Assembly: GCA_039621445.1 (NCBI GenBank)
Contig: CP154954.1
Span: 19,826,642-19,890,641 of the forward strand
Source of the DNA: Euglena gracilis
Taxonomy: Eukaryota
Reading direction: 5' to 3'
DNA: 64,000 nucleotides
Below the pieces are notes generated by a model, which worked only from the letters and a program-made list of their open reading frames with translations, had not been told where the DNA came from and did no database searches. Made by a program: the position numbers and the translations under genes. This document shows, in pieces, positions 1,215 through 29,464 of the stretch; position 1 is the first letter of the stretch, and each line of letters opens with the position of its first letter.

Positions 1215-4200
1215 CTCCTGAGCTACTGGCCCAAGGTGCGGGTGGGGGGTATCTTCGCGGGGCATGACTTCTACTTTGCTGGCCACTTCCTCCTGGGGAA
1301 AGACGACTGGCGGGGCGATCTTTTCGGTGCTGTTTTCCACGTGCAACCTTTTCCTCGATTTTTTCAAGTCATTTGTTGCGTCTGCTCTTGTGCCTCTAAA
1401 AGCGAATTTCCTTTTATTTACACTTTCAAGAACCAGAGAGGAGAATTTTGGTTGGTTTGTTGCCAGATGACAGTAAAAGGTATTCCTTGGCAGTCCTGGA
1501 AAATGAGGCTCATTGCCCTGGCAACCCAACAATCCCATCTCGATGTCCATGAAAAAGCTGCACAGCTGTGGTTAGGGTTCGGGTTAAACCCTAACCCTAA
1601 CCCTAACTTGGTCCCTCGAAAGCGCCACTTTTCGGTGCCGATCCGAACCCTGACCCCATCCCTCCAATTAAACGCGGAATCTCCGCATCCAACCATTTCT
1701 GGATCCGGCGCAATTCTGGGGCACCGCGGGACCGAAACAAGGGGAACGTCGGACACGGGGGTGCACCTGCCCCTTGCCAACAGTCAAATATCCCCTGATC
1801 TGGCAAGTGCATGTTTTTTTTTGCTGGTTTCTTTGTGATCCGGGTTGAATATTATTTTACAAATGTCAGATTCCACCCCCCCCCGGGGGGGCTTGGCCCA
1901 CGCCATGATTGACTGTAAGGCTGGGGGCCAAGTTTGCATGTAGAAGGGGGGCAAGTGCCTGGGGGGGGGAGGTCGAGCGGGGTGGGGAAGGGCGCCCCCC
2001 GCCGGTCTCTTTGCCACAACGGGGAGCGGCACAAGGAGGCCGTGAAGGGCGCGGTGGTGGAGTTCGCCCGGAACTCAGGTGGCCGAAATGGCACAAAACT
2101 GGTGGTCACGCCCTCTTTTGGAATGCCCAGGAGTTGCAGCCCCACGGCTGATGATGGGAAGTCCCATGGGTGGTGGGGCGGGGGGGGGGGGAGGGCGGCA
2201 CCGGCCCTGCCTGTTTGTCCCGGGATGGTTCAGGTCAAGCTTTCTCAACGCAGTGTTGGCGGGTGGGCGGCCCCCACAGTCGTTCCCCACAGCACCGCCC
2301 CCGTGCAGCCTTTTCAGCCCCGTGTTCTTCCCCGGGGTGTTCTGTGGCTGGGCGGATGGGGAGGGCCACCCTAGTTGCAGGCAGCCAGCCACCAACCCCA
2401 ACCAGCCCTTCAAAGTTCTCCGCAACCTTTTGCTCAATCCAGGAGTTCGCCAATCGGTGGCTTAATTTCGATTTGGCGTTGTTTTTATTCGAGGGTTGCC
2501 CGCTTGGCCGAGCTCAATGTTGCTGGGCCTTTGCAGAAAATTTGGCATGCAAAGGTCCAAACCTTTTCAGCAGAGGGTTGGAAGCTTGTGCCTCTAAGAT
2601 GATCCCTGTTGTAGACATCGATGGGTGGGTGGGAACCCCCGCACATCCGATTTTCCCTGAGACCAAGCACCTCCAGCGACAAATCTGACAAATTCTGACA
2701 ATCGTGACAAATCCCGACATATTTTTTTTGGCCTCTAGATGTGTGGGTTCCGACAAATCTTGTCAAATCCCGACAACACTCAAAATTATTTAAATTATAA
2801 AATCATTTTGCAAAAATAAATTTTGGACAAAAGGATGGACGAAGTTTCCCAAAAGGAATGTTTATGACTTTCCTGAATTTCTTTGCTTTTCTTTGTTTAT
2901 GCTTTTTGTCTTCACGGGTTGTTCTAAAAATGAGAGCCGTTTTCTTTGTTGTTGGTTCAAAAGGAGCTTGTTGTCAGTGAGGATAAGTTTTATGTCTCAA
3001 CAACGATAGAGCCACTATTTCCATCAAGAAGACAGTCAAGAAGTCAAAATGTCATTAATTTTCCTTGTTTCCCGCAGACATCATTTTGCTTGAATTTGAG
3101 ATTAAGAAGCTTGGCATTGTCCAGCAGCTGGTTGAAATTGCTATGTAAGTGGATTTGCATTAGAGAACTGGTGCATGTGGCAATTCTCATGAGAATCGAC
3201 CATTTCCAACATTAATGTTCTATTTCCCAGGCCTCCTTTTTTCCTCCACAGTTTTATCTCTGTGCATCAGAGATGAATGTGTTGTAAATGCAAAACGTAG
3301 GCATCGTAAAAAAGTATCAGTGGTCCTTGGACAATTGTGGTATGCAATCCAAGAAATCATTGCAAGGAGGATGATTTTAGGATGCTAAGGTTTGACAATT
3401 CTTGCAATTCCTGGCAAAGACAATAAAATATCATGTGTCTGAAGGTGATTTCCTGTATGCCCGCCCCCCTGTCTTTTTGTCCACGACCCTCACTCATTGT
3501 GGAAGATGAACCTTTGCTGTATCAACAGCCGGCCCCTGGTCCAAGGCAAATGTCAGTGGTCGTTGGACAAGTGGGTGCAGGGGGGGATATGAAGCGCGCA
3601 TATTCTTCGCATATTTTGCATATTTAGCACATGTTGCATTTTTTTTGGCCAAAAAGTGCCTGTTGTGTATATTTAGCACATATTCCGAGAGTTTTCAGAA
3701 TTTCTGCCACATGTTTTACTCATTCCATGTCTTTTGGGTCCGTTTGAATTTTTTCCAACCATTTTAAGCCATTTGCTTTCATCTCAGGCAGTGCATCTCG
3801 CACTTAAGCTTTTTTTGGTCGATGTGCGCATTTTCGCAAACCGACCAAAAACCACTTTGAGCGCCAGCGTTACAAGGGGTGAGAGCAAGAGGCAGCAGGA
3901 TTGGACAAAATACGAGCGATTTCTCATTTTTGGCACTGACTCTCCCAGGAATTATGTGTTTTTTTGCTGTTTTTTTTTAGGTTGGAATGTCACGAAAACC
4001 CCCGGACCTATCCCCCCAAAGTGAAAAAAACGCCGACAAAAACTCCAAAACCATTGTACCGCCACCCCCATTCACTGTGTGACAGCTGCCAGCGCCAGGT
4101 GGTGCTCTGGGGGTGGGGTGCAGGTCCATCCCTTTGCTTGCTTTTTGAAGCTTTGTGACACGTTGTGGAGGTTTTTGAAGTTGGTTACGAAAGGAGTGGA

Positions 4201-7200
4201 AGTGCACATGCCACATGAACAATGCACTGTTCGAGAATTCTGCCACCGAGGGATGATGAGGGAGATACAGAACGCAAGAGGACTGCCACCGGTTTCCAAT
4301 TGACTTCGGTGGCGATTTGCCCATCAATGCCCCACTGATGTTTAAGGCTCCGTGGCACCCACACAACAGCGTAAATGATGTCTATTTGCGCAAATGCGCA
4401 CACGGACGACGTGCGCGTTTGCGCACGCCGACGCTTTAAAGCCAACCAAGAGCCTCCAATTGCAGTGTGTTTGGAACTGGAAAATGAATATGGCAACACT
4501 GTGATATTACCTCCCTGGTATTCATGTGGTGCTGGACCCCCTCTGTTGAATGCTGCTGGTATGTTTGGGCGGTTGGTGTGCGCAAATGCGCACATCAGCC
4601 ATTAAAATGCTTGCTTTTCACAACTGTGGGCACCAACCAGAATTATTCATTTTTCATTTTGAAGCCTTGGCAACAGGGACTTCTGAGACAACAGAAGGAT
4701 CGAAACAGGAGGAGAGCAGATTGTGGAGGTGTTGCGCTCAAAGTGGTGGTGTTGCAAGGTATGTCTGAGAAGGTCAAATGAAGCGTGTCGGTATTTTTAA
4801 GTCAGCAGACACATCCATTTCAAGCCAATGTATTGTGCCTCATTTTCAGACTAAAATGGGTGAAGGGCACTTTAAACTCAGTTTTTTTTTTTTGGATAAA
4901 GCCTGAAAACGTTGTTTATTTTGATGTTTCAGGGGCTAAGAAATAGTTTTTCACAGCTTCAATTGCCAATGCCCAAATTTGGGCCCGCAGGCTGGTCATT
5001 CTGTTGAGTTTAAATAAAACAGAATACCTTGCATTAAAGGATTTTCAAACTGCAGTGGTGCCACACCCTCCAAATGGTACATGTGTTAAGTTGCAGAACA
5101 GCTTGGCGTGCGCAGATGCGCAAACCGACCAAAAAGTCTGGTTTCGCATTTGCACAAACCAACCACTTGAACAATGTTACAAACACACCAATTGCAGCTG
5201 GCACAGATGGTCCTTTTCACAGTTGTACAAACGGCTGGTGTGCGCATTTGCGCACACCATCTATTTGCGCACACCATCTATTTGCGCGTTTGCCCGCACC
5301 GACCACCAACATCTCACATAGCCAAGTTTCAGGGTATCGTTGCAGGCTTAGGCACACCCACCAAATCGTTCAGTCAATATCCTAATTTAATAAGACAGCC
5401 ATTGTAGGATTCTGAACACACCTGCTGGGTGTGGTCTATATTATGTGCTGCGGTGATTCCTGCTCTTAGGCACCCTATTTGCCAAAGCCCCTGCTTCCAT
5501 CTCCGCGTCCTGTGGCAACACATCACATCCTGCCTACATTTTTAGATTTTCGGGGTCGTATCTTGTCATTTTCATAAAAAATGTCGATGTGCGCAATTGC
5601 GCACAACGTCAAAGAAAAAAGCTTAAGTGCGAGATGCGCCGCCTAAGTTCATTTTGGAGGCACTTTCGAGCTTTTTTTTTCCAATTTCGGGCCATTTTTT
5701 TTTTAACATTGAGCAACTTAAGGCCATTTTTGGGCCATTTTGGACCACTTATGGCCATTTTTGGTCATTTTCTATCATTGTTGGCCTTTTTTTTTGAGAA
5801 AATCAGCTGCTTTGGTCATTTGAGCCATTTTCCATCGCAAAATCATTGTAATTTGTTGAAAATGGCCAAAAACGACCAAAAAGAAAATAGGCCCAAAATG
5901 GCCGAAATGATGGGGAAATGGTCGAAAACAGCTGATTGTGGCCGGTTGTGGGCTGAAATGGCCTCAAAATGGACCAAAATGGCTTGAAATGACTTGCTGG
6001 TTGGGTCATTTGAATATGTCCAAATATGTCTCGGTTCGAGGAAAATTGTATGTATATTCAGCATATTTTTCCGCATTTTTACCGCATATCCCCGCATGTT
6101 TTAGCGCATATTTGGAGGAGCTTTTTAGCGCATGTTCCCCCCTCCCCTGGTGGGTAGTGGTATAGACTGCATTCAAATACTGCCAATTCAATGAGGAGCA
6201 ATTTGAGTTTGCTGCCTGAAATCTGCCTGAAATGAGTCCCGCGCTCCACAAGTAAGTGATGACAAGATTCCATCTCATGGGTCAACCACCTTGTGTTTAA
6301 CACACATCATTTGCCTCGGATCAACGTTTTCCAAAATCATGTTGCTGGGACCCCACCTCCAGTGTTCAAACCCCGACAAATCCTGACAAATCTTGACAAT
6401 TTCAAAAAAATGCCAAGCTTTTGGAGGTGCTTGCCTGAGACCAATCCTTTTTGTCATTTTTGAATCTTTGGCCAATAATTTGTATATTTGCAAATAGAAT
6501 CAGATTGGTATCAAATAGTAAAAACCATGTGATTTTGATGGGTTTTTTTTGTAACATCAGGCGGCCCTCAAAATCCATAAAACTGTGATTGCATTTCTTT
6601 TTTTTGCATTTTTGCAGACCTTTTGCTTTTTCCTCCGCTTTCTGCATCTTCTTTGAGGGTCCGTGTTCCCCCCCCCCGAGAGTCACATGGGTTTGGGTGA
6701 GGCACGACAGCCCCTTTGAGGGCTTTCCCATCCATCAGTGCATTCCAAACTGCCCTCCGACCCCGTCCCCCGCCTCCCCATCTGTCAAATCACGAGTGGG
6801 AATGGAATTTCCCAGGGCAGAATATGGCATCTTGGGTCGGGGGGGGGGGGGGAGGGGGCTTGGCTGGAAGAGGTGTGCACACCCATCGATGGCCCATCGG
6901 GGACCTTGTTTTTCATGGGTTTAGAGTGGGAAAATATTTTCTTGGGGGAGGTTAGGTTGGGGGTTCCCCGGTTCGTGTCACGCCTGTACCACACCTAAAC
7001 TCACTAAGGATTTTGGCAGTGGCAGCAGCATGGTCGGAGGCTCTCAGTTTGTGGCAAAATTGATGTGCTGGGCTGGTTCTGTAGAGATGGTCTGGTGGTG
7101 CCATTCTGGCCATCTAAGAACAACCGGTCCCTCTCCATCTGCGTCACGAGCGGCGAGGTGTGGCACCATAGCTTCGTTTTTCACGAGATTGCTGAACGCG

Positions 7201-9510
7201 AGGCAACCCTACCCCCCCTCAGGTCCCCCCCTCTGGCCGTACAGCGAATTCCCATTTCCCTGCCCAATCCAGTGCTTTCCCATAGAAGCTGTGTTGTCCT
7301 TTCCAAGCTACTGCTGATGATGCATTCCTTTCTGAAGTGGCCAAACTGGATCAAAGTTGGTGGATGAAGGGTCTAAAATTGTGATGGGAGCTGCACCTCC
7401 ACACCTGCACAAAATAGTTTGGGAGGGGGAATGTACGGGGTGCATATTTTTTGTACGTTTAGCACCTTCTCCATCAGAATTTTCCTGCTGCATACTTGCT
7501 CGTTCTGTTTTTGACCACGCATTTTTGGGGTATTGTTTTGGAAAATTATTTGGGCCATTTTCTGTCACCAGACGTGGCATCTGCACATAACAGGGAAAGC
7601 AGAAATTCTTGGGAGGCAAAAGGTGAAGGTGAACGAAATAGTTCAAACACATATTTCTGAAAATGTATTGTTTAATGGTTCCCAAGATGTGTTGTGCTGA
7701 AATGAATATGATGCTTCACATGCAGATGCTTCATTTGTTTCAGACATGTGTGTTTGATTAATATACAGGTGTTTGTGTTTTTCCATTCTCTGTTTACACA
7801 ACCATGAATTAGGCACCATGAAGATAGCATTAAGCAATTTCAGGGTCCTCAGTTTGGAACGGGGTGGGGGGGTGCATATAATTGGCTCTGAAACATATGT
7901 GGAAATCATGTGGTGGTTTTGGTACAGGGCCCTTTGGTGTTTTTTTTCAGAGCTCCCATTGGGTCAGTCGTTTCAGGTTACAATTGAGGTTGGGACTGTT
8001 ACTACCAAGCATTCCCGATGATTCCGGGTGATGCAGGGCGATGCAGGGAGATGCCATGCAATTTTGTGGCCATTGTTGAAAATTGCAGCCATTTTGGCCA
8101 CTTCTGCCATTTCCCCCCACTTTTTCCATTTTGAGCACTTCTAGCCGCTTTTGGAGCTTTTTTTTTGGCCTCTTTTGGTACTTTTCGGCCACTTTTGGCC
8201 AGCTTTAGGCCAGTATTGTCCATATTTGACCGTTTCTTGCTGCTTTTGGCTGCCTATGGCTGTTTTTTGACTGCTTCTGGCTACCCTTGGCCACCTTTCG
8301 TCATTTAGCCATAACTTGTGGCCATTTTTTTTGACCATGTTGGCCACTTTGGTTGCTTCCGAAGAAACAGAAAGGGAAGGCCAAAATTGTCCAAAATTTG
8401 GCCAAAAGCAGGAAAAAGGGGCGAAAATGGCCAATGGTGGCCAAAAGGGCAAAATAGGCAACCAAAAGTTGTCAAACGTGGCAAGGAGCAGCCAAAAGTG
8501 GCACACGTGACCAAAAGTGGCCAAAGGCAGCGCAAAAGGGCTTGGTTACTCTTGGCTGCTTTTGGCTTGGCCAAAATCGAAATGACCAAAGTGGACAATA
8601 GGCTGGCCAAAAGTGTCCAAGCCAAGAAGCACCAAGCACCTTCGAGGACCGCAAAAACGGCGCATGGCAATGCGGGACCCAAACGGGATGTGGCACGCCA
8701 GGCACTTCCCACCACTGTGCGCCCCTTTCATCCATGCGTTCAGCCGCCCTTGACCATTCCAACCATTTCGGGGTCATTGTGGGGTGTGTTCCACATGGTC
8801 CGCCCTGAACCCTCCTTTGCTGCCTCCCCACCTCCCCGGTGCTGCGGGACCTCTTCCCCTCGTGGCTCATCCGCAAGCCTGGCCCTGGGGTGGCGGGGGA
8901 GGCGGGCTGTATGAGCCCCAGCCGGCCGACTGCTGGGGCCGGAGCGGGATTATCAAAGCCCTACAGATCACAGGTCTCCTGGCAACCTTTGAGATGCATT
9001 TTCACCAAAAAATTTTCTGCATTTTTAACCCTGTTTTGGAGTTTTACCTTCTGCAATTCTGCATTCTGGACGCTGTTGTCTTCTGAGACCAATTTTTGTG
9101 ATTTTTCTTCGGCTAATTATCACATATTTTCAGAATCAGCAAGCTCCTACATTTTTAAAAAAAACCAGGGGGGTTTTTGATTTTTTCCTTACATCCAGAC
9201 CTCCAAAAAATTTGGATTTCGCGTTTTTTTTCTTGTTTGTTTTGTTTTTTGTTAGTGTTTTTCTGCGTGGCGTTTTTCGAGGGTCCATGTTGCGTCCTCC
9301 ACCCCTGGTGCTTGAGGTGCCCCAGCGATGGACAGCCAAAGGACAAAAGTCTTCCAGTGCTACCTCTGAGGCAGAAGTATCTGTTTTGAGAGCGATGGGG
9401 TGCTTGACGAGTGGCCGAAGGGGACGAGGCGGCCACAAGCGAGGTGTACACCCCACACCACCAGCGCCTCCTGCAGCGCATGAGGAAGGCAGAGCGTCTC
9501 TTCCTCCTGA
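1215..9510 (+). CDS. Class I SAM-dependent methyltransferase (Methyltransf_24-like), paralog A, 5'-partial, multi-exon
   Basis: Exons: ~1215-1308 LLSYWPKVRVGGIFAGHDFYFAGHFLLGKDD; 2004-~2072 WSLCHNGERHKEAVKGAVVEFAR; ~7123-7150 NRSLSICVT; ~8838-8881 VLRDLFPSWLIRKP; 8911-~8946 EPQPADCWGRS; ~9410-9510 EVYTPHHQRLLQRMRKAERLFL. The WPKxRxGGIFAGHD, GAVxEF and PSW motifs are typical of the family and are collinear with paralog B. The 3' end is uncertain (possibly an exon at ~10000-10155 and a stop near 10305). Confidence 0.8.
1571..1607. repeat. Interstitial telomere-like repeats, head-to-head TTAGGG/CCCTAA
   Basis: gttagggttcgggttaaaccctaaccctaaccctaac. Confidence 0.7.
3783..5647. mobile_element. 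Non-autonomous TIR element, CTTAGG family, 5-bp TSD
   Basis: TIR ctcaggcagtgcatctcgcacttaagctttttt / aaaaaagcttaagtgcgagatgcgccgcctaag. TSD ttcat on both sides. Closely similar to 11483-13175. Confidence 0.88.
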
Positions 9511-11482
9511 TGGACAGGAGAATGGCGTCCCACCACCAAGGTGCAAGGAATCCCCATTCACAAGCTGGCCGGAAACTACCTCACAAAAACGAGGCACAGC
9601 ATCACTGCTATTGACAGTGGCCCTCATTTTTTGCAAGTGCCGGCATATTTTTTTTGTCTGCGGCGGGTGCACCCCCCCCCGAGATCACAGGTTGGGGTGG
9701 CGGGGTTGGATGGTTCGGTGGGGAGGGTGTCCATCCGCCTATTAAACCCCCCTCCCAAATAACACCCCCCCAAACAACATCCCCCCTCCTGGGGCCCCAG
9801 CTCAGGTGCCCAAATAACACACCGGGGGGGAGTGTTATTTGGGGGGGGGTTACTTGGCACGAAGCGACATAAATATTTGATATGATCTCTAGAGCAGTGG
9901 GTCGTCTCATGTCCACCCTCCCACCCTCCCACCGTGATCCAAAAGAACAAACTCTTGGACAGCAGGCGGGACGGTACCCCCCCCCCCGTTAATGCATCCG
10001 TCTCACACCCGCAAGCCAGTGCACGCTTCCAGCGGCGGCCCTGCAGGGGATACCGGGCCAACCGCCCCGCTGCCGCCAACCGGTCTGTGCCTGTGTCGTC
10101 TGCCACTCCCGCCCAGGGTTGTATGGGAAGCTCCGACAGACAGCTCAGACATGAGGTAGGGGGCAGGGGGGGTCACCCCCCCTCCCCCTAGGGGGGGGGT
10201 AAGGTGGTAGGGGGGGTCCCCCCCCTCCTAGTTTCGGAAGGGGGGCCCCCCCACCCCCCTCCTCCGAGATTCCCATCCAAGCCTGCTCCTGCCGCTGCTG
10301 GCTGACCCTCTCCGGAGCCGGACGTCCGGAGGCTTCTGGTGGGGCCCCCCACCTCGTGGACTGCGGGGGTTGCGCCGATCCGCTGCCAGTTCCGCTGGGT
10401 TCAGGCCATTGCCGGTGTATCCCAGGGGAAACTTTCCAAGTGGCGGCACTTGAAGTTCGGATTTATGAGCTCACAGATGAAGCTTCTCGAAGCATGATTA
10501 ACCACCAAAGATACCTCGGTCAGCCGGGCAAACTACGGCTTGCTGTCGTCCAGCCCCCTTCTGGGGCACTGAATTACCCACCCCCTTTTCTGGGAGTTGG
10601 GGGGGGGGACTAGAAAACAAACCATTGGTTAATGATAACCTGATTGGTTAATGATAAGTAACCTGGACCCCCTTTTTTGCTCAATGGCGCTGGATTTTAT
10701 GCCTAAATAACCTTGGAGCTATTTTTTTTTACCACACCTCCCCAAGCCAGAAACTGGCACATCGCCGGGCTATTTGGGGAGGGGGATGGCATTTTTAGAG
10801 GCCACTCAGTTAAACTGGGGAAAATTTGGAATCCCTGACTTTTGGTTCCCTGAGTCTCTGCGGAGCCTCTCTTGCCGAGCCTCTGCGGAGTCTGGTTACC
10901 TGGGTGCTTCCCCACGGAGCCTCCCCAGCTCATGGAATTCGTGTTCAGGTCACCACAAACCCCGTCTTCAGGCCACCTCCAAGACTGCACCACATCTCAT
11001 GCCCCCCCTCCCTGGCACAACGCATCCCCAATTCAGTGAGCGTTGTTTGAATGTTGTTTTTTGCAAGGGGGGGTCAGACCCCTCCCCCGGTGTGCTCAGA
11101 CCCCACCTCCTTCCTTTCAGACCCGAGGGGTCCAGGACCGTCCCAAACCAAAAATAGTGCCCCCCCCCCAGTCCGGAGTGCCCCCCCCCCTCCTGCCAGG
11201 GGGTCTGCACACACCCAGGGAGGGGGATCCCAGGACCCCCTCAATAAGGTCAAAAAAGGTCAAAATTATCCCCCTAGCGTTTTGTGCCGAAATTTTTAGC
11301 ATTTTGGCAGATTTACCCCCAAAAAGTTCCCAAAGTGGCACTTTTTGACAATTTTGGGGGGCCTTTTCAGACCAGCTCTGGGATGGGTCCGACTCGCCAC
11401 CTGCCTTTATATCGAACCCCGCCCCTCCCAGGGTAACATGTGCAGGGGGGGGGGGGCAATTTTTGGAGGGACGAGAAAATCA

Positions 11483-13175
11483 CTTAGGCGGCGCATCTCG
11501 CACTTAAGCTTTTTTTTGGTCGATGTGCGCATTTTCGCACATCGACCAAAAACCACTTTGAGCGCCGGCGTTACAAGGGAGAGCGAGAGGGTGCAGGATT
11601 AGACAAAGTACGAGTGATTTCTCGTTTTTGGCACCGGCTCTCCCAGAAATTATGTATTTTTTTGCTGTTTTTTTTTGAGGTCGGAATGCCACGAAAACCC
11701 CCGGACCAACCCCCCCAAAGTTAAAAAAAACACCGACAAAAACTCCAAAACCATTGTACCGCCACCCCCCATTCCCTGTGTGACAGCTGCCAGCGCCAGG
11801 TGGTGCTCTGGAGGTGGGGTGCAGGTCCATCCCTTTGCTTGCTTTTTGAAGTTTTGCGACACGTTGTGGAGGTTTTTGAAGTTGGTTACGAAAGGAGTGG
11901 AAGTGCACATGCCACATGAACAATGCACTGTTCGAGAATTCTGCCACCGAGGGATGATGAGGGAGATACAGAACACAGCAGGACTGCCACCGGTTGCCAA
12001 TTGAGTTCGGTGGCAAGTTGCCCATCAATGCCCCACTGATGTTTAAGGCTCCGTGGCACCCACACAACGTCATAAATGAGGTCGGTTTGCGCAAATGCGC
12101 GCATGGACGATGTGCGCATTTGCGCACGCCGACCGCTTTAAAACCAACCAAGAGCCTCCAATGGCAGTGTGTTTGGAGCTGGAAAATGAATATGGCAACA
12201 CTGTGATATTACCTCCCTGGTATTCATGTGGTGCTGGACCCCCTCTGTTGAATGCTGCTGGTATGTTTGGGCGGTTGGTGTGCGCAAATGCGCACATCAG
12301 CCATTAAAATGCTTGCTTTTCACAATTGTGGGCACCAACCAGAACTATTTTTCATTTGAAGCCTTGGCAACAGGGATTTCTGCCACAAGAGAAGGATCGA
12401 AACAGGAGGAGAGCAGATTGTGGAGGTGTTGTGCTCAAAGTGGTGGTGTTGCAAGGTATGTCTGAGAAGGTCAAATGAAGTGTGTCGGTGTATTGCATTA
12501 TATCGCCCCTTGAACACAGGGATTTCCAAGTCAGCAGACACATCCATTTTCAGCCAACGTATTGTGCCTCATTTTCGGACTGAAATACTTGGGGTGAAGG
12601 GCACTTCTAAACTCAATTTTTCAGGATAAAATCTGAAAATGTTGTTTATTTTGACGTTTCAGGGGCTAAGAAATGGTTTTTCACTGCTTCAATTGCCAAT
12701 GCCCACATTCGAGCCTGTAGGTTTGCCCTTTGGTTGAACTTAAATTCTACAGAATACCTCGCATTTAAGGATTTCTAAACTGCAGTAGTGCCACAACCCT
12801 CTAAATCTCTAAACGGCAAGTGCGCTAAGTTGCACAAGCGGGTGTTGTTTGGAGATGAGCAAACCCACCAGACAGACTGTTTTTCGCATATGCACATGCC
12901 AAACCACCTGCGCATTTTTTTAAACACACCAGTTGCAGCTGGCACACCTGGCCCTTTTCACAGCTGCGCAAATGGTTGGTGCGCATCGTCCATTTGTGCA
13001 TTTGCCCACACCGACCACCAATTTCTCACAAAGCCGAATCTCATTGTATTGCTTCAGGCTTAGGCACAACTCACCAAATCGTTCAGTCAATATCCTAATT
13101 TAATAAGACAGCCATTGTTGGGTTCAAAACACATTGACAAATAAAAAAGATTAAGTGCGAGATGCGCCGCCTAAG
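11483..13175. mobile_element. Non-autonomous TIR element, CTTAGG family, 5-bp TSD
   Basis: TIR cttaggcggcgcatctcgcacttaa / ttaagtgcgagatgcgccgcctaag. TSD aatca on both sides. Confidence 0.9.
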
Positions 13176-13569
13176 AATCACAAGTCCCGGAATTCATTCT
13201 TCTTCCAACCAGGCTTCTTTTTACAACCCCAGGTCAATGCAGCTCGGGGGACTCGGGGGACCCTCCAGGAGGGCTGGGTTCGCCAAAAAAGACTCGTTGG
13301 GAAACCTAGCAGCAGTGTAGAACGCTCGCTGACTGCTGAGTTCCTCAGTCAGAACCAGCAATGGAGGCCACTGAGATAAGATTAAACGAACTGACTTAAT
13401 TGACACAAAGGGCAAAAGAAAGTTTTTAAAAAATATCATTTGCATTCTTTCTCAGCAGCCTCTAGCTCTACCTGCGACCGCTGTCAACAGGGGACAGGGA
13501 AAACCCGGGAAACCCCAGTCCCTGGGCTAGTTATTGTCATAATTGTTATCATTGGAAACGTTCCAAATT

Positions 13570-13745
13570 CAAAAGTGCATTTTGAACGATGCCAATGCTC
13601 TGTGTCTGGAACGAATAGACAAGCATGCAAAAAAAATTCCTGTCGGAGAAATGGATTTCTGAACGAAAAATGGAGGGTCACCAGGGGGAGAGAACGGAAA
13701 TGGGAAATGTTAATGATCAAAAATGGGTGGAGCGAGAGCTCCTCT
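13570..13745 (+). repeat. Dispersed repeat with a diverged inverted copy at ~18010-18170
   Basis: gtgtctggaacgaataga...caccagggggagagaacggaaatgggaaa...atgggtggagc matches the reverse complement of ~18030-18165. Confidence 0.75.
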
Positions 13746-15243
13746 GGACCAACTTGAGCAAGTCGTTGTGTCGGTCAATTTTCTTCTGTTGTTCATCTAA
13801 TTATTCTGTTGCAGTAGACCCAGACTTGCCCCAATGGTCGTAGGGAGGCCCTCCACCAATTCAGCACAAGGCCTTGAGCAAAGGCCTGTCCCTACACTTG
13901 TAGTTTAAAGGGATGCAGTTGGACATCATCGGCCTCGCTGTTTCTCAGCATTCAATGGACCCGCTTACCATTCCTGTTAATATCCCTGTCCCTTCAGCGT
14001 TGCAGGCAGCTGTCTAGTTTGATGATCCTCCCCCGGGCAAAATGCCCCCCCCCCCTTGGTATTCTGCTTGTTTTTTTTCCGAGCTGAATGCACATAGGCT
14101 CCACATGCAAAGCATATTCTTTTTGGATCCTTGCAACTTTATGCGAGTGTGTGAAGTGTGGGTGTGTGCATGCACGAGCATGTGTGTGTGTCGTGCGGGC
14201 GCACGCGTGCGAGTGCTGTACCATGGCCGTCCATAGAGGGTGTGCACTCGTGCGTTGCGTTTTGTGGGTGGGTGGTCAGTCCAGATCAGGCTTCTGGGGG
14301 GGACAAGTGTCCACTCAGACCTGACCAAGAATGCCGCACTTCAGTTGAGGAGGGGGAGGGAGGCGCCAGATCGGGCGAGTGCAGGATGTGGAAGCGCATT
14401 GATTTTTTTCGAACTTCGGCAAAATTCCCTTCCTTGTTTTTGTCAATCTCCTCGGTCTGCTCGCATTTGTGCATTATCTGGGCAGGGAGGTTGACTTCAC
14501 CAAGATCACCCTCTCCCACTCACATCCAATTTACCCCCCACCCCCGTCCAACCATGTACAACCTTGTACCCGTCGGTAACACCTCTCTCTGGAGCCGACC
14601 ACACAGCACAGGACCATTCAACCCCCCTAACAAAAAAAAATGAATTATGCCTGGCATAAAGTCTGGCCCAGAGCCCCACAGTTTTTCCCAACGTGGCCGA
14701 CCGTCAGGAAGAGTGCAAATTTCGACAAGTTTCATCAAGGACGACATCACAGGCCACTTGAGATCTGTCTGTCTGGGATAGTTACCAAGCACCTCTGATG
14801 ATGCTGGGCGATGCTGGGCGATGCTTGGTTTTTGGAGACCAGAGGTGGGGTTCCGATGTTGGGCGATGCTGGGCGATGCTGGCATCTTTTTTTGCAGTTT
14901 TTGAAGAATTAAACCCATTTTTGGGATAATCTTCCAACAAATCTCCAGTTTCACACCCATCTTGTTGATTTTGGATGAATTTTTGCTAATTTTGGGAGCT
15001 ATTTGTCACTGATTTGGCAAATGTTGGGCTAATTTGGGTCAATATGAGCACATTTAATGGCATTTTTGGCCATTTTGTGTCATTTTGGTGATTTTGGGTC
15101 ATTTTTCACAATCGTTTATGGACATTGTTGGCATTTTGGGCAGTTTTAGGTTATTTCAAGCCACTTTAGGTCATTTTGGTTGCTTTTTGGGGCTTTTTGT
15201 GGTCGTTTTTGGGTTTTTTTTATAGTTATTTGCATCATGTAGA

Positions 15244-15510: not shown

Positions 15511-18500
15511 GGATTGACCAAATGAAATAAGGGATCAAGGGAGATGCTTGTGGCCAATGATATAAAATTGCCTTTGGCTGACCAATGGTCTTAAAGGGGC
15601 CAAAGCAGTCAATCGGCAGTCAAATCGGAAGCATATCTGGCAGTCCCCGCAAGCCAAAGGCGGCCAAAGGCGGCCAAAGGTGGGTTAAATCGGGCCAAGT
15701 GGCCGAAAGTGGCCAAAAGCAAAAGCGACCAAAAATTGTACAAGTGGGTAAATGACCAAATGTGGATAAAAGTGGATGAAGTGTATGCAGATGCTGTATT
15801 GGATGCCGAGCTGAAGGGCATGGGTGACCAGAGGTGCTTGATAGTGACCAACGATTCCTTTTCTTGATCAAATGCTATTTATTACCCCCCCCCCCGCCTG
15901 GTTGACCAAAGCAAAGCAGATCATGCTAACCTCAGGAAACTGATCAGTGGGGGGGGGGAGGATTTTGAGGTAATTTTCAGCCAAAGATTTGTTGGCGAAA
16001 AGGCACATTCAGGCATTAGGCAGCCGAATTCGGGCGATTTTTACGTTAACCGTGTTAAGGTTTTGATTTTTAAAACTAGTCAACCGGAGTGGGTGATTGG
16101 TTTTTTCAGAGTGACTGGCTGGTTTTTGCCCCCCGGGGGGGGGGGGTCGGCAAAAAACCACTAAAGTGACCCAGCACCGAAGGCGCCGGGGGAAAAAATG
16201 GCCTTTTTTGCATGTTTTTGGTCAAGTTTCTTTTGGATTCCAGAGTGGCCGACCCCCCCCCCCCCGGGGGGATAGTGACTGACTGGTTTCCCGGAAAAAA
16301 GTGACTGACTGGTTTTTTGAAGACCCCGGGGTCGGAGTTGGGGTTATATGCCCTGAGCTTATGAGAGCCCCTCTGATGTGTTACGGTGCGTCGGGGGGGG
16401 GGGGACATTCTCTGCACAGCCAATGTGTGGGCTTGGGGAGGACAGGTGGACGGAATCCCGCTGGAGATCACGTTGCCTTGAATTGGGTAAGCATTTGGGC
16501 ATTGGCGCACGCTGATTTAGAATTTTAATCATTGTATTTCTATTGCGCCGTGGTGCAGTATAACTCTTAAATTTCCATTATACACAAACGTGCCCATTGC
16601 GCAGTGGAGCAACGGTTGCCAATTTTTAATTTCTTTTTTTTGTCATTGTGGGCGGAGAGAGCAGTCCTCTGGAAGCATCTCATTACCAGAGCGGGCAGAG
16701 CTAAGGTGGAGGGAAGCCTTTCCTGGGACAAAAAGCCAACCCTGTTGTGTGAATGCAACCGCCATTATCTTCACATCTCGACGGGTCTTGTTTTATGTGT
16801 TTGTGAGCCTGAATGCCAGTGCCACAGGTTCCTCCCACTTGCTTCGCAGTTTAGCATGCCTGAAGGGCCCTTCTTTTTGGTCAACTTTTGAAAGTATGAA
16901 AATCTCTGTTTGAAAAAGAACAGGTACCAGATGAAACCTTGGAATCACATCCGAGGAAACAGTTTTGGGCACCCAAAAGTGTTTTAAAAAACTTCGCCCC
17001 CCCCCCTTTTTCTCACCCAGGATTTGAAGCACACAATTTTGGGTGGAATTGAAAAATCGAAAGGGTCCATCAAAAACACGGAGAAAGGCAGGCTGACACA
17101 CCTTTTTTCGGTAATTTGCAACCCACCAGACAGCCACATCACCAAAAAGTGAGTCCCTGATCCTCTCCCCTCCCTCCAGGGGTGGGGCCTACCCGTGCGT
17201 GGATGGGTGACCCCCCTCCCCCCCCCCTGGTTATTAAAAAAAATCCCCAACCCAACACCCACCCGACGCAGGTCGCCTTGTGGTGCTGTCCCCTGCCAGG
17301 CCGTATTTTTGTCGGGTGCCGACCCCACCCGGGGGGGGCGGGGGGCTGCCTGGGCAGGCACTCCAAGGCACTCCCAATCCGACCCGGGGGGGGGGGGTAG
17401 GGCATACAGCCAAAAGTGCCTTAGCACAGACCCGGCGCCGGGGAGCCAAAAAATGGCCTATTATCAAAGGAATGTGCCTGGGCACAGGCCAAAATCCGAC
17501 CCCCCCCCCCGAGGGGGGTGGTGCCTGCCTGGGCAGGCACTCATAGGCACTCTGGACCCCCCGCCTCCCCCCCCCCGGTGTTGGTAAAAAAAAACAGCCT
17601 GTCCCCTGCTCTTCGTCAACAGGCCTTGATGTGTGCTTCAACATTGTCTATGATCGTTGTTTTGATGTTGGTTTCGCACATCCGTGAAGGCACAAGTGGA
17701 CCGACAGCTCTGTTGCAGGTCATCCTAACCAGGTACCTGTTAATGTTCGAGGTGCATTTATGGGAATTTTTTTTCGCCATATTCATCATCTTTTCTCATT
17801 GCACTTTTTTCCCCGTTTCCTTTCATTTATCATGTTTACAATTGGTGTTGTCATAAATATATTTTGTTATGGTTGCAATGATTGTTTTTCTCAGGAGATG
17901 AAAAAACTGTATTTTTTTTTCACAACCATGAAGAAGTTTTGTTTATTATTATCATTTTTGCAGAGCTTTTCAGCTGAACCAGGGAGATATATTATTTTTT
18001 TTTATCTCACAAGTGCTCAAATTCCTCTTTGCTCCACCCATCATTGATAAGCTTTCCCATTTTCCGTTTTCTCCCCTGGTGGCCCATCATTTGTTTTGAA
18101 GTCCACATCTCCAACACAGCCAAATTTTTTTCTGCTTCATTTTCTATTCGTACCAGACACCGAGCACAGGAATCGTCCAGAATTGACTCATTCATTTGGA
18201 CCCATTCAAAATGAATGAATGGTTCCAAATAATTCCACCCAGAACCCTCCCCCGGATATTGTCCTCCCTGGAAAATTGTCCTGTACTCGCTGACCTGTCT
18301 TTAGGGGGACCAGTCTCCCACCTCTGTCCCCGCTGATTTGTCTGGAGACAGTTTCCCGGGAGGGGGGGGGAGGGTGAGTACCAACTCCCGTATCCACCCA
18401 AGGTATTTCCGAAGCTGGAGGGGTCCCAACCCCCTTGGGGACCGAGCCAGGCACCTTTTTATCCCAGCCATCAGCTTCCGGCAAGGCTGCAGATCCCCCC

Positions 18501-19053
18501 CGGTGTGTCCGCTGAAATAAATGATTGTGTGGCGGAGACCACACAGTTCAAAAAGGGGGCATCATGACCAAAATATTTTCGAGACGTTTGACTTCAAAGT
18601 TTCAGATGAAATACTCCGATGCAGGGGTTGCTGGTTTTGGGAAACCAGTTGGGTCCAGCCAGCCAGTCAGCTCCTGTTTTCCAGCCGGCCTCCTTGGCGC
18701 CCCAAAGAAATCCCGAAGAAATCCTCTGACTCAATTGCGTGCAAAAGCACCTTCTGGGTTGCGAGCGAAGGTCCAGTGTGCCATTGTTGCAAAACAGACA
18801 CCACCCGCTGTGCCTCGACGAAGACAGCACAATACGAATGATGTAGCAATGCCCTCAGGTCACACCCTTGTACCCCCATTTCCCCAGGGGGGGGCACAGA
18901 AGTCCTCCTCAGAGTCGGTATAATAATTGTACTGTTAAAAATAATGATCTTGTTGTCTTTGTTGCTGCCAGAAATTGAAGGTGGCTATTGTCCCCGGCCA
19001 AAAAAAGTATTCTTTCGGACGACCACTGGCCAGTGCCGGGCAGCGGCCGACAG

Positions 19054-23580
<4,527 letters not shown>

Positions 23581-26000
23581 ATGCTGGACGGGTGCTCGGG
23601 TCGTTGCTTTCAGGGACTAAAGGTTCCAGCGGCAAAGAAGTGGAGACCACCTTCCCATTCACCAAACCTGGCTAAACTCAGGTTGTGCGATCCTTTCAGC
23701 ACAGCCCAAACGTTTGGTTCAGTGGATTTGTACCATTTTCATGATCACATGTGGATATGTGGTCCTCATCGTAGTCTTTGACCTCGCAGGCCAGCATTTT
23801 CCACATCAGTTCTGTACGAATCTGTGTTACCGCCAAATTCTACGCTTGTCTTGCCCTTTTTGAATGGCGGCTTGCCATACCTTTGCGACAGAGCGGCCCT
23901 GCCACTGACGGTCCAGCCAGAACCAGGTTGTGGCTTTGTATGCTGCCCCCTGTCGCTCTTGGGAAACTGTGGAACAATCAGCCCCTTCGGTTGATCCTGA
24001 CAGTGGGAAAGCGGGTTTGGTTGTGTGAAACAGATCTCTTGTGAGAGGGCAGTCACTGACACAGCCTGACTGCGAAGCTGCCGTCTCCTCTTCATCCCCG
24101 GCTGCCTTGCCTGGGGACCCAGGCCCATCGACGCCAACCCGTTGAGCCCATCACTTTGCACGCACTCGCATTGTGTTTCTCATATGTTTCCATCTTTCGC
24201 AATGCGATAGACCGTGGGCTGTCGCTTGTTGCATTGCAAGATTCTTTTTTGTGATTTTATAGCCATCCTTCCTTGGAAGACCGAAAAAGTGGATTTGCTC
24301 AGGTTTCAGTGGGATTTCGCATGAGATGCCAACACGACAAAAACGTGGTCGGGGGAGGGGTAGATGAAAAGTTTTGCCTTTGAGATATTCTGTCTTCCAA
24401 AGGTTCAGTCCGCAAGCCTGTATTGTGAATTAAAACAGAGAGCTCATTTTTCGTTCTGCCTAGAATTGTGTTCCGCTTCTTTTAAACAGTCCACCAACCA
24501 AGGTTCTTTGGACAGAAATTTCTTTAAATTCACTTTTCAATTCTGCTCCCCAATACAAAAGGAATCCTCCTCTTCACCGCTGACAGTTCGAACATTTCCC
24601 TCACTTGTACGTTGCCCATGCGTTCACCAGTGCCTGGTCCCCTCGGCAGAATCAACCTGCACACTGACCATGTCCGTCGTCTCCCTTCACAACGCTCTCT
24701 CTCCTTGACTGCCTCCATGCAAGATGTTCCCTTAGATCCGATGATCTAAAGATTTCATGGAATCCCATGCAAGCCCCTCCTGACCATCAAACACTAGCTT
24801 TACAATGTAGACAATGCTGTTTACATTTCGAAAGAATGTTTGGAACCGTCTCTCAAGTTGGGGATGGTGCTTCCCGACCCTCCTCGGGGGAATGGCCGGG
24901 CCCACGTGCCCCCAAAAGTGTGTACCTCCAAACACGTCACAGAAAAGATACCCCGACCAACCTGAGGGAATTCCTGTCGCACCGGCTCACTCACCCCTGT
25001 GTGAATGGCTCTGTGTGAGTTATGCAATTCCTTCTTTGCTCCCGTTTGCAGCACACATCTCTGTTTGCCATTGCATTCAGTCAATATCTCCTTCTGGTGC
25101 TGCGCGCGATTTTTTTTGGAGTCTTCGACGGAATTTTCCCCCAAATGTGCCAATCACATTCCGTTGTCGTTGGCCACTGGGCGGTGATGGTCTGCCCATC
25201 CACGTGAGGGAGACGACACAAAACCACAAAACAATCTTCCCCCTCTCGAATTTAGGGCTTTTGCACTGCAACAACCGAACAGCAGCGCTTTTGGAGCAGT
25301 CGAGGGCACTCTTTTAACTTCTGTGTGTCCCCGCTCCCCGGATGGGTTCCACAGTGGGTGGACCGCGGGTGGAGTGCCAAGGCGGATGGATGGGAAGCCT
25401 TTCGGTTGTGACGTAGGTGGTGGGGGGGGTCCCGACCACCCCCCCCCTCCCCTTGGATGTTGGGAGGGTGGGTGTCCAGACCCCCACCCTCCCTCCTCAG
25501 CAGGTTTCAAATATAGCGAAAATTATCCTTCCGCCGCTGCATGCCGGGAAATGAGCAAAAAAAAATGCTTTTTTTTTCTTCATTTTTGAGCACATTGCCC
25601 ATTTTTTGCCGTTTGGGTGTTTTTCACATAAAAAATGTTCAAAAAATGAGCTTTTTTTCGATTTATTTTCAAAGAAAAATCAAGGTTTTTTGACCAATTT
25701 TGGCCTGGTATGGCCTTTGCTGGTCCACAAACCGAAAAATTCCGGGCCCATGTCAGTTTCGAGGGAGGAGGGGAGGTCCGGCCCAGCCCCCCCCCCTCGA
25801 GGCTTCCCATCTATCCTTGGCCCAAGATCAATCCGGCTGGCTGGAAGTCGAGTGGGTGTTGAACCCTAACCCTGGGTGGGGTCTCAGGTGGATGTAGGTG
25901 GATGGATGGGTTTTCAAAGAAGAAGAAGAAAGTGGATGCGCACTCGGCATAGGCACTGGAACCCAAGTTGCAGGAAGCCTCGAAAAGGGCCTCATTCTGG

Positions 26001-29000
26001 CTTAGGCGGCGCTAATTGCCCAATTTTTTTTCCAATTTCCGTGCGTTTGAGGTGCGTGGGTTTCCGCTTACGATACCCCACCGTTTTGTGCTCAAAATTT
26101 TAAGAGGGTGACACCAGCACAAAAATTTGGTTGGTTTTGGATCCATTTTAGGCATTTTGACAAAGTGGCGATTTTGAAATTTTATGGTCGTTTTAGGGGG
26201 GGGGGGTTGGAAAACACCCCCCCTGGAACGCCCTGAATTTTGAAAAACAGAAAACGGTGGGTGAACGCCTGGCCTCCGGAGCCCCGGTTGTTTGGCGATG
26301 CTACCGGACCCCCCTCTGGAGGGGGGGTGACACGGTGTGGCAGGTGAAGAAGAGGCCACCGCCTAAGCAACCCGCCCATTTTTGAACCTCTCGTGAGTCC
26401 CGAGGTCCAGTGATGGGGGAGGTGAACAGACAACAGTGCCCAAAAGATGCTATAATTTCTGGAAGGGATGTTTTAGGCGGTAAACCGCCCAAAACTTGTT
26501 TTTGTGATGAAGAGATGCTGCTCTAACGGAGGGGACCGGACTGCGAATAACGTTAAAAATGAGGTTAGGCGGTTTACCGCGTAAAGCAGTGATGATTCTA
26601 TAACGAGGTGTGCGCTGTGTGTGCTTGCCCCGGCGTCCTGATTGGTTTACAAGCTCCCCTGCATTACCCTCCTCCTGGGCTGTGCACCACGATGTATCAT
26701 TTGGCAGCGCAAAGATGACAGTTGGAGCAGGAAAGCATGGGAGGGTGGCGTGGTTGCCTGTGCTGCTATCCAGAACAAGAGGGTTGGGAAAGGCTTCAAT
26801 ACCATTCTGACCATCACAAGTTCAAGAACTTTGAGAAGCTTGGGGACAAGGTGAACTGAAGTGGGATGCAGTTTGAGTGCGTGTTGTCCTTAATTTGTCA
26901 GCGCACAAGTTCCTGTTGATGACACAACTGGGCCACTCAAAACTGAACATTTTTTCCCACCTGTCAACCCCCGGTGAGAGATACTCAAAAATTTTGTTTG
27001 AGGCGGTGTGGAAACAGAACACAACTTTTTTTTGCAAGTTTTGTAGGACCGTTTGTAGGCGGATCTCGGTGTCCCAATGGGTTGTGTCTGTGATTTTTTG
27101 GTGTCCCGAAGTGTCCCAGTGTCGGTGGTGGTGCGCGGCGACATAATTTTTAAAAGTTGGGCGGGACAGGTTGAAAGGGAATTGTGGCTGCTGCACCTTG
27201 GCAGCAAGCACCCAAGCAGGCGGAAACCTGCCTGGCATTTGAGCAGGAGGTGGACACCCTCCTCTCCAGTGAGGAGGCGGTAACGTTCCCCCTGGCCGGT
27301 GGTGGGGTCGTCTGCAGGTACAGCAGTAGAACACATGTGTCAGTTGCCCGGCCGGCTGTGCTGCAGTAGAGGTGATGTTTTTCACTGTCCTGAAAAACAG
27401 CAAAAAACCTGAGTTTGATTTCTCAGGAGGGAAGGAAGCACCTCCCAGGGCCCTCCATTTGGAACCCAACGTTGTTGGTGGTCCAAAATCAGGGTTTGGG
27501 GATGGCTGACGAAGAAGTGATTCAAGATATGGACGGAGAAACGCCTGTTTCAGCGGCTGGTGGCGGCAATCGAAAAAAATTGGGGGGGTTTCGGAAGGGG
27601 TTCTCCAAGTTCTGAAAAATTCAAGGCCTTTTTAATTATTTTTTTGAAAGAGTTTTACAGCATTTTTCCTTTGATAAGCTGCAGTTTTTGCTGAAATTGA
27701 GACAAAATGCCCAAAACAGCTCTTTTTCATGGCTCTCCTTCCTTTAGGTCCGGCAACGTGCCTCCAGAGGAGGCAACAGTGGTCTCCACAGTCAGAAGCC
27801 GCGTGGAAGGGGGGTAAACCAGAAGGTTGTCTGTTCTCAACCAACGCCGGGTCGATGTTTGACCCAATGCAGTTGGCATCCATGTAACCACCCTGAGCAC
27901 AAGTGTTTCCGGTCCTTTTCAAAACCACCCCTGCTCTGAGTGCCCAAGTTTAAAGTCGCAGGTCTCCTCTCGTTTGGTCAACCCCCTCTTGTGCAATCTC
28001 CTCTCCCTGGTTTCCATAAACCTCGATCCCTCAAACCCTACACAACACGCCAGACACTATTCAGTTGCAAAATTTCCAAGCTTGGCAACTAAATCTGTCG
28101 TCTATGTCCTTCGCAGAGGTTCACGCCTGTGACTGGTGTCGCAAGTAGTCATGACAAACCAGCAGAGTTCATTTCTAGGGTGGTTTCCATCTTCCACCAC
28201 CATCCCATCGTCCACAAATGCTTTTCTTTTTCTGCCCGCCCTTAACGCAGCCAGGAGGTTTCCCGCCTGACTTTTCTGTCCTCACAGCTGGTATGCCCCC
28301 CTCCATCTCTCATTATTGGTTGTGTCTGTGCAAACCCCGTTTCCATCTGAACTCATAAAATCAGACCAAGCCTCACTGCGCAAAGGCTGACACTTCATCT
28401 GTTGGCCTCCTGAGCAGGTACTCTGTGTTTTCGTTTAAGCGGATAACCGCCTACGTCGTCTCTTGGTCCCCACCCAACCCCATGCCAACTCCTCAATGGC
28501 GTTTTTAAATTAACGTGGGGATGGTCAGGCGGTTAACCACCTAAACAAACCGTTGGTGGGGGAAAGACTTTGTGGGTTTTGGCTCATACCGGATGCTGCG
28601 AGTGCAGAGTTTCATAAATCAGTTAATTCCTCTTTTTTTTTGTTATTGGGCCGTTTCAGACAGGAACCTTTTCTTCTATCCAAGTGCGTTGCTGAAGGCA
28701 GAATACCGTCGGGTGGCACCTGCCCACATCGTCAGGGAGTTCCCCAGCTACCATTGGCCACGGTGTCACTGCCCCCCGTTCCAGAGACCCCAGCAAGCAA
28801 TGGCACCTGGCCTATGCCAGTCTGGACACAGGGGGGGTGAGGGCAACACCACCAGGACACCACCATTGTTTCTTCTTTACTCCCAGACGGATTTCCGCCT
28901 ACACCAAGTTGCCTTAGACTCACCACATATACAATATACACACACAGCAGGCGGATTCCCTCCTACCAATCATCAGCTGCTTGGCTTACGGTGGGCGGTA

Positions 29001-29453
29001 ATCCCCATGCCATGCTTTGTTTTCAGTTGTAGGCGGTAATCCGCACGCAAGTTTATTCTACGCGGATATCTGCCTAAACATTTAACTCCGTCGTCTGACA
29101 CCTCTTGTTTCGTTTTACGCGGTTATCCGTGTACGCTTGCAATATTCATTCGTTTCTCAAATACGGTTATTATCATAAACCATGAAGACACAGCCCCGTG
29201 TCACACCCATTCAAAGTCAGTGTTTTCCCAACCATTTCAAACATTTCTAGTACACCCCCAACTCACACAATTCACACACAATCGTAAATCGTTTAAGCGG
29301 AATACCGCGCAAAACCACTTTCGGAAAATTTTGGCCCAAAGCTGCAACGCACCCCTCTCAGCCCAGAATTTTGTGCCCTTTCAGGGGGGTTTTAAAACAG
29401 CCAAAAAACGTCAAAAAACGCAAAAATCGGTTGGGCAATTAGCACCGCCTAAG
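26001..29453. mobile_element. 3.45-kb TIR element, CTTAGG family (different interior), 5-bp TSD
   Basis: TIR cttaggcggcgctaattgcccaa / ttgggcaattagcaccgcctaag. TSD tctgg on both sides. No intact long ORF inside. Confidence 0.88.
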
Positions 29454-29464
29454 TCTGGGGGGGT

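What the first reader, a model, noticed from the sequence alone, without database searches (positions are those of the whole stretch)
3778..29458. TIR transposon family with CTTAGGCGG termini and 5-bp TSDs
Three elements (3783-5647, 11483-13175, 26001-29453) end in cttaggcgg...ccgcctaag (the first has a degenerate left end). Each has a different perfect 5-bp TSD (ttcat, aatca, tctgg). Among eukaryotic cut-and-paste superfamilies a 5-bp TSD is characteristic of Transib, but Transib ends are CAC...GTG. I cannot assign these to a known superfamily. Two unrelated interiors share the ends, implying a common transposase.
Basis: partly seen in the sequence, partly recalled or inferred. Interest (0 to 1): 0.7.

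Follow-up and report, generated by a model that had tools for sequence, protein, structure and literature searches.

The report
Non-autonomous transposons sharing one end motif
Three gene-less jumping-DNA copies from two families share the same 12-base ends and each duplicated 5 bases of target DNA; they are real, but which transposase moves them could not be tested here.

Summary
E1 (3783-5647), E2 (11483-13175) and E3 (26001-29453) have inverted ends beginning CTTAGGCGG and perfect 5-bp direct flanks: TTCAT, AATCA and TCTGG. E1's left end is decayed to CTCAGGCAG. The exact 9-mer occurs 6 times against 0.28 expected, and 5 of the 6 are element tips.

E1 and E2 are 85% identical copies of one family. 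E3 has an unrelated interior but the same first 12 bases.

Each family carries its own internal palindromes. In E3 the half-site equals the element tip.

None of the 465 ORFs of 75 aa or more in the window hits a transposase family, so all three copies are non-autonomous. Public DNA runs show that E3 belongs to a highly repeated family with shorter deletion derivatives.

A 5-bp duplication is not exclusive to Transib: hAT5 and Ginger2 are published with it.

This scan had already noted, 0.78 Mb downstream in the same genome, an 11.4-kb element with CTTAG..CTAAG ends, a 5-bp duplication and a transposase said to fold like hAT and P-element transposases. I could not see or test that sequence.

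Verdict: these are ordinary non-autonomous cut-and-paste transposons of an unclassified lineage, in a genome that earlier notes name Euglena gracilis. Interest is modest.

The parts
3783..5647 (.). E1: 1865-bp non-autonomous copy of family A. The left tip is decayed (CTCAGGCAG) and the right tip is intact. It keeps both arms of the roughly 65-nt TIR.
   Evidence: It is 85.2% identical to E2, and its ends align to each other at 81.5% over 65 nt.
3778..3782 (.). E1 target-site duplication, left copy (TTCAT). The right copy is at 5648-5652.
   Evidence: read directly.
11483..13175 (.). E2: 1693-bp non-autonomous copy of family A with both tips intact (25 consecutive matching end bases, 29/30). 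It lacks the 181 bp that E1 has at 5421-5601, including the right inner palindrome.
11478..11482 (.). E2 target-site duplication, left copy (AATCA). The right copy is at 13176-13180.
26001..29453 (.). E3: 3453-bp non-autonomous copy of family B. The TIR is 23 nt (22/23 matching), and the first 12 nt are identical to family A.
   Evidence: It is highly repeated in DNA runs.
25996..26000 (.). E3 target-site duplication, left copy (TCTGG). The right copy is at 29454-29458.
26473..26584 (.). E3 left inner palindromes TTAGGCGGT...CCGCCTAA (starts 26473 and 26565). The half-site equals the element tip.
   Evidence: 8 of 8 window hits lie in E3. 20 shuffles gave a mean of 0.65 and a maximum of 3.
28251..29312 (.). 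E3 right inner palindromes of the same type (starts 28251, 28435, 28525, 29058, 29115, 29293).
26415..28398 (.). Interior of E3 that is missing from a shorter family member seen in DNA contigs.
   Evidence: joint 26414->28399 (skips 1984). One contig in each of X1 and X5, depth 302 and 531.
3824..5604 (.). Seven 16-nt palindromes GTGCGCA..TGCGCAC in E1 (starts 3824, 4386, 4411, 4578, 5108, 5240, 5589). Four more lie in E2 (11525, 12087, 12112, 12280).
   Evidence: 11 of 12 window hits lie in E1/E2. 20 shuffles gave a mean of 0.2 and a maximum of 2.

Best explanation
E1, E2 and E3 are non-autonomous cut-and-paste (class II, TIR) DNA transposons. They belong to two families of one lineage.

Proposed mechanism: a transposase supplied in trans recognises the shared 12-nt tip CTTAGGCGGCGC. 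It is probably positioned by the family-specific palindromes inside each element. It then excises the element and reinserts it across a 5-bp staggered cut, whose repair gives the 5-bp duplication.

The window copies are old:
- E1 and E2 are 15% diverged.
- E1 has a mutated left tip.
- E2 has lost 181 bp next to its right end.

On that reading the lineage is a hAT-like group that makes 5-bp instead of 8-bp duplications.

Shown here: the anatomy, the repetition and the lack of coding capacity.
Inferred: the enzyme, the role of the palindromes and the superfamily.

My odds are about 0.85 that these are trans-mobilised TIR transposons of one lineage, and about 0.4 that the lineage is hAT-related. 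The confidence figure below refers to the first statement.
For: - Ends and perfect 5-bp duplications in 3 of 3 elements.
- Exact end 9-mer found 6 times against 0.28 expected, with 0 of 100 shuffles reaching 6.
- The first 12 nt are identical in 4 of the 6 ends. E1-left has 3 changes and E3-right has 1.
- E1 and E2 are 85.2% identical in different flanks, so the element borders are set by two independent insertions.
- Palindromes are confined to the elements: 8 of 8 and 11 of 12 hits.
- No coding capacity. 0 of 465 ORFs of 75 aa or more in the whole window hit a transposase family in Pfam. The longest E3 ORF has no relative at E<=0.001.
- E3 is highly repeated. Summed word depth is 40,458-281,830 (X1) and 71,843-465,597 (X5) over 26089-29258, against about 116 and 196 in single-copy bins.
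- At 21 listed positions inside E3 most of the depth carries a letter other than the window's, in 5-83 contigs in X1.
- Two of the 24 listed contig pieces stop aligning exactly at 26001 or 26002 although the contig goes on.
- One contig per DNA run joins 26414 to 28399, which is a deletion derivative.
- hAT families with 5-bp duplications are in print (passages of PMC12730594).
Against: - No transposase was seen here, so the superfamily rests on an unchecked AI note.
- That note gives only 5 end bases (CTTAG), not the 12-nt core.
- The tip CTTAG does not match the usual hAT end motif as I recall it (YARNG, from memory).
- The published hAT5 group sits among animal hAT lineages (Blackjack: PMC12730594; Buster: PMC3517528). 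A euglenid group would have to be a separate origin of the 5-bp habit.
- There are only three duplications, and no empty site or excision footprint was found.
- The two families have different palindromes, which argues against one and the same enzyme.
- The depth figures are sums over all contigs at 80% likeness. The tool warns they are not copy numbers.
Confidence: 0.8

Rival explanations
1. The lineage is a new superfamily-level group of DDE transposons, related only distantly, if at all, to hAT and P. Its own signature would be CTTAGGCGG tips and a 5-bp duplication.
For: - The tip plus duplication pair fits none of the signatures I could read. CMCT, which includes Transib, is 5'-CA..TG-3' with 2-5 bp. 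hAT is usually 8 bp. Ginger2 is 4 or 5 bp.
- None of five full-text searches for Euglena transposons or 5-bp-duplication families turned up this family.
Against: - The same note says the fold is like hAT and P-element transposases.
- Duplication length is known to vary within hAT (5, 6, 7 and 8 bp).
- No transposase was examined here.
Confidence: 0.25
2. The elements belong to Transib or the wider CACTA-Mirage-Chapaev-Transib clade, with atypical tips.
For: The CMCT clade is described as making 2-5 bp duplications (PMC12730594 passages).
Against: That clade shares 5'-CA..TG-3' termini 'in most cases'. Here the tips are CT..AG in 6 of 6 ends. No RAG1-like sequence was seen in the window (0 of 465 ORFs).
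Confidence: 0.05
3. The elements belong to an integrase-type (Ginger2/TDD) or Mutator-like group that can give 5-bp duplications.
For: Ginger2 is given as 4 or 5 bp, and MuDR/IS256 as 4-10 bp (PMC10045372 passages). Family A has a fairly long TIR of about 65 nt.
Against: Integrase-type elements end TG..CA as I recall (from memory), which is not met here. No integrase or MULE domain is in the window.
Confidence: 0.05
4. The two families are moved by unrelated enzymes and the shared 12-nt tip is coincidence or convergence.
For: The internal palindromes differ, and the interiors are unrelated.
Against: 12 identical tip bases plus the same duplication length is far beyond chance: the 9-mer alone is expected 0.28 times in the window. 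In E3 the palindrome half-site is the tip itself, and the family A tip runs straight into a GCGCA motif like its own palindrome.
Confidence: 0.05

Closest known systems
hAT5 group of the hAT superfamily (Kapitonov and Jurka 2007, Repbase Reports, as cited in PMC12730594)
   Same: Cut-and-paste TIR elements that make 5-bp instead of 8-bp duplications. The TIRs are short, and non-autonomous derivatives are common.
   Different: hAT5 is placed among animal hAT lineages, whereas this genome is said to be a euglenid. The tip CTTAG is unlike the hAT end motif as I recall it. No transposase was available to test membership.
Ac/Ds-type autonomous and non-autonomous pairs with repeated transposase-binding motifs inside the ends (textbook knowledge, recalled)
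   Same: Deletion derivatives keep the ends and inner repeats and are moved in trans. Inner repeats are distributed unevenly between the two ends: E3 has 2 on the left and 6 on the right.
   Different: Here the inner repeats are 16-20-nt palindromes rather than short hexamers, and the duplication is 5 bp rather than 8 bp.
Transib
   Same: 5-bp duplication.
   Different: The tips are not CA..TG, and no RAG1-like gene was seen.
   Same: The first 5 end bases and the 5-bp duplication are the same.
   Different: It is said to carry a frameshifted transposase gene, which the window copies lack. I could not compare sequences: two look-ups by sequence found nothing.

Membership tests
Non-autonomous TIR (class II) transposon | Terminal inverted repeats | tested here: met
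   E2 29/30, E3 25/30. The family A TIR is about 65 nt and the E3 TIR 23 nt.
Non-autonomous TIR (class II) transposon | Target-site duplication of fixed length | tested here: met
   5 bp and perfect in 3 of 3 elements, with different sequences.
Non-autonomous TIR (class II) transposon | No transposase gene of its own | tested here: met
   0 of 465 ORFs of 75 aa or more hit a transposase family. The longest E3 ORF has no relative. Caveat: the relevant family is said to have no Pfam model.
Non-autonomous TIR (class II) transposon | Multiple dispersed copies | tested here: met
   Family A has two copies in different flanks. For family B, summed depth is 350-2400 times the single-copy bins, with many contigs per position.
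hAT superfamily (hAT5-like) | 5-bp duplication (hAT5) instead of 8 bp | tested here: met
   3 of 3. The definition is from PMC12730594 passages.
hAT superfamily (hAT5-like) | hAT-type DDE transposase with its C-terminal dimerisation domain | not testable with these tools
There is no transposase in the window and no genome is held.
hAT superfamily (hAT5-like) | Usual hAT end motif (YARNG, recalled from memory) | tested here: not met
   The tips read CTTAG. The motif itself comes from no call.
Transib / CMCT clade | 5'-CA..TG-3' termini | tested here: not met
   CT..AG in 6 of 6 ends. The criterion is from PMC12730594 passages.
Transib / CMCT clade | 2-5 bp duplication (5 bp for Transib) | tested here: met
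Transib / CMCT clade | RAG1-core-like transposase | not testable with these tools
   No autonomous copy was available.
Ginger2 | 4 or 5 bp duplication | tested here: met
   for the criterion; for the data.
Ginger2 | Integrase-type transposase and TG..CA tips (the tips are recalled) | tested here: not met
   The tips are CT..AG. The enzyme could not be tested.

The most novel reading that the evidence does not exclude
CTTAGGCGG-tipped elements with 5-bp duplications mark a euglenid-specific, superfamily-level lineage of DDE transposons. Its enzyme reads a palindromic 'double tip' site (TTAGGCGGT...CCGCCTAA) both at the ends and inside the element. Two abundant non-autonomous families have diverged in their inner sites while keeping the cleavage tip.
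Probability: 0.25. Interest if true: 0.5.

Novelty: new member of a known kind. Interest (0 to 1): 0.3.

Why it matters
The repeat content of this very large protist genome is barely described. Five full-text searches for Euglena transposons or 5-bp-duplication families found no account of these elements. Tying two abundant non-autonomous families to one tip motif and one duplication length gives a clean handle for annotating them genome-wide. It also gives a way to check the candidate autonomous element that this scan noted nearby. If the enzyme proves to be a deep hAT/P-like branch with a 5-bp stagger, it would add a data point on how duplication length shifts within that fold. For this window alone the result is ordinary: old, gene-less transposon copies.

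Tried and rejected
- Whole genome: none is held for this window.
- Metagenome scan with a 21-nt degenerate tip pattern: 4 loci, each with a single unpaired match. I read these as chance hits. The viral-contig scan gave 0.
- Pfam on all 465 stop-to-stop ORFs of 75 aa or more: no transposase. There were five weak hits below the curated cut-offs: CLZ, Zip, DUF454, Methyltransf_24 and Thioredoxin_5.
- Rfam, whole window, gathering threshold: 0 matches.
- Homologue search with the longest E3 ORF (269 aa): none at E<=0.001 among proteins of 147-471 aa. The minus-strand frame 26450-27949 has only 3 stops in 500 codons against a window mean of 13.8. With no homologue and a biased base composition I treat it as non-coding.
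- Paralogous empty sites in the window: none. The 400-bp flanks were searched separately with BLAST.
- Earlier notes looked up by sequence (E2 left end, whole E3): nothing.
- One-mismatch matches at 51450 and 52522 were inspected and are unrelated.
I then laid 20700-30200 only, so E1 and E2 were never laid.
- No RNA holder was listed by the run search. RNA raw reads over E3 were few (first-mate depth 1-8) and I draw nothing from them.
- The right border of E3 and loose ends at the tips were not among the rows the tool printed.
Full report
**Observation**

I read the three claimed elements directly.
- E2 (11483-13175) begins CTTAGGCGGCGCATCTCGCACTTAAGC and ends with its reverse complement. AATCA lies on both sides.
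- E3 (26001-29453) begins CTTAGGCGGCGCTAATTGCCCAA and ends with its complement (22 of 23 match). TCTGG lies on both sides.
- E1 (3783-5647) has an intact right tip and a decayed left tip (CTCAGGCAG). TTCAT lies on both sides.
- None of the three duplications can be extended to 6 bp.

The controls show that this is not chance.
- The exact 9-mer occurs 6 times against 0.28 expected, and 0 of 100 shuffles reached 6. Five of the six are element tips.
- The one-mismatch version is not informative: 12 matches against 8.99, with 20 of 100 shuffles reaching 12.
- A blind scan for CTTAG..CTAAG pairs with identical 5-bp flanks found only E2 and E3, with 29/30 and 25/30 matching end bases. Fifty shuffles averaged 0.88 pairs and none exceeded 15/30.

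**Anatomy**

E1 and E2 are copies of one family, 85.2% identical over 1693 columns, in unrelated flanks. E3 matches only itself.

Aligning the six ends shows that the first 12 nt (CTTAGGCGGCGC) are common to both families. The sequences then diverge.

Family A has a TIR of about 65 nt. It is best seen between E2-left and E1-right (90.8% over 65 nt). E2 lacks 181 bp that E1 keeps next to the right end (E1 positions 1639-1819).

Each family has its own internal palindromes.
- The 16-nt GTGCGCA..TGCGCAC motif hits 12 places in the window, 11 of them in E1/E2.
- The 20-nt TTAGGCGGT...CCGCCTAA motif hits 8 places, all in E3.
- Shuffles gave means of 0.2 and 0.65.
- In E3 the half-site is the element tip itself.

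**Coding capacity**

I scanned all 465 stop-to-stop ORFs of 75 aa or more in the window against Pfam: 48, 150, 117 and 150 ORFs.
- None hit a transposase family.
- Five weak hits lay below the curated cut-offs.
- The longest ORF in E3 has no relative.
- Rfam found nothing.

The three copies are therefore non-autonomous.

**Repetition**

No genome is held for this window. I therefore laid two DNA runs, one presumed RNA contig set and one RNA raw-read run on 20700-30200 at 80% likeness.
- Single-copy bins have a word depth of about 116 (X1) and 196 (X5).
- The ten bins inside E3 have 40,458-281,830 and 71,843-465,597.
- The tool warns that these sums are not copy numbers. I read them only as 'highly repeated'.
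- At 21 listed positions inside E3 most of the depth carries a letter other than the window's, in 5-83 contigs in X1. This is what a multi-copy family with a private-mutation copy looks like.
- Of the 24 listed contig pieces, one spans the left junction. Two others stop aligning at 26001 or 26002 while the contig continues. This supports the left border.
- One contig in each DNA run joins 26414 to 28399, so shorter deletion derivatives exist.
- The printed rows did not cover the right border.

**What it is**

These are non-autonomous cut-and-paste transposons of two families that share a cleavage tip and a 5-bp target stagger.

- hAT families with 5-bp duplications are named hAT5. hAT also has 6- and 7-bp groups (passages of PMC12730594).
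- Ginger2 is given as 4 or 5 bp, and MuDR/IS256 as 4-10 bp (passages of PMC10045372).
- The Transib-containing clade is described with CA..TG tips, which these elements lack.

This scan had already noted a candidate partner in the same genome, 0.78 Mb beyond the window (e1-7359641). It is described as 11.4 kb, GC-rich, with CTTAG..CTAAG ends, a 5-bp duplication and a frameshifted transposase said to fold like hAT and P-element transposases. This is the natural candidate for the autonomous partner. I could not see its sequence, and two look-ups by sequence found nothing. The superfamily assignment is therefore a lead, not a result.

Two points count against simple hAT5 membership. The published hAT5 sits among animal lineages. 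The tip also does not fit the hAT end motif as I recall it.

**Organism**

Earlier notes call this genome Euglena gracilis, and the run labels here are coded. I did not verify the name. The non-GT-AG, 8-base-ambiguous skip seen in RNA at 21742/21853 is in keeping with those notes.

**Literature**

I searched the full-text library seven times. I read passages of five papers: PMC12730594, PMC10045372, PMC3517528, PMC12455990 and PMC6004678. The last held no hit in its main text. None describes a Euglena family with these ends. Repbase Reports and Dfam are not in the library, so 'not in print' is limited to these searches.

**Verdict**

The elements are ordinary in kind and unclassified in lineage, and the decisive evidence (the transposase) lies outside this window.

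Noticed in passing
window 21743-21860: A 102-bp MITE (21751-21852; ends CAGGCTTGTGCTTA.., 13/14 inverted) with an 8-bp duplication GGCCCAAG sits inside a coding exon of a methyltransferase-like gene. RNA raw reads skip exactly 110 nt (25+25 reads, 8 shared letters). One DNA contig in each of two runs also has the joined form, so splicing cannot be told from an allele or paralogue without the insertion. This matches the MITE-as-nonconventional-intron theme of earlier notes.
   Followed up: partly
window 1179-1835 (+): This ORF contains GGIFAGHDFYFAGH.., a paralogue-like copy of the exon at 21853-21930. It is a possible source of the 'joined form' DNA contigs.
   Followed up: no
window 29489-30700: Extremely abundant repeats lie directly right of E3. 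Summed word depth is 1.4-5.5 million against about 116 in single-copy bins. There are long inverted repeats, and a 19-nt tandem unit GGGCATCATGGGTCATGAT of about 25 copies at 30211-30670.
   Followed up: no
window 21651-21967 and 22602-23235: Short segments inside or next to the expressed gene have very high summed DNA depth, 0.2-2 million in X1. These are probably other small repeats.
   Followed up: no
whole window: The pentamers CTTAG and CTAAG occur only 16 and 21 times in 64 kb, where a uniform expectation is about 62 each. I did not test this against dinucleotide composition.
   Followed up: no
window 51840-52140: Runs of C followed by runs of G lie next to repeated GTGACTGACTGGTTTTT. 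This looks like another repeat family.
   Followed up: no
window 26359-26367 (-): A sixth exact CTTAGGCGG lies inside E3, in inverted orientation to the left tip and 367 bp from it. No matching 5-bp flanks are present, so it is not a separate insertion as it stands.
   Followed up: partly
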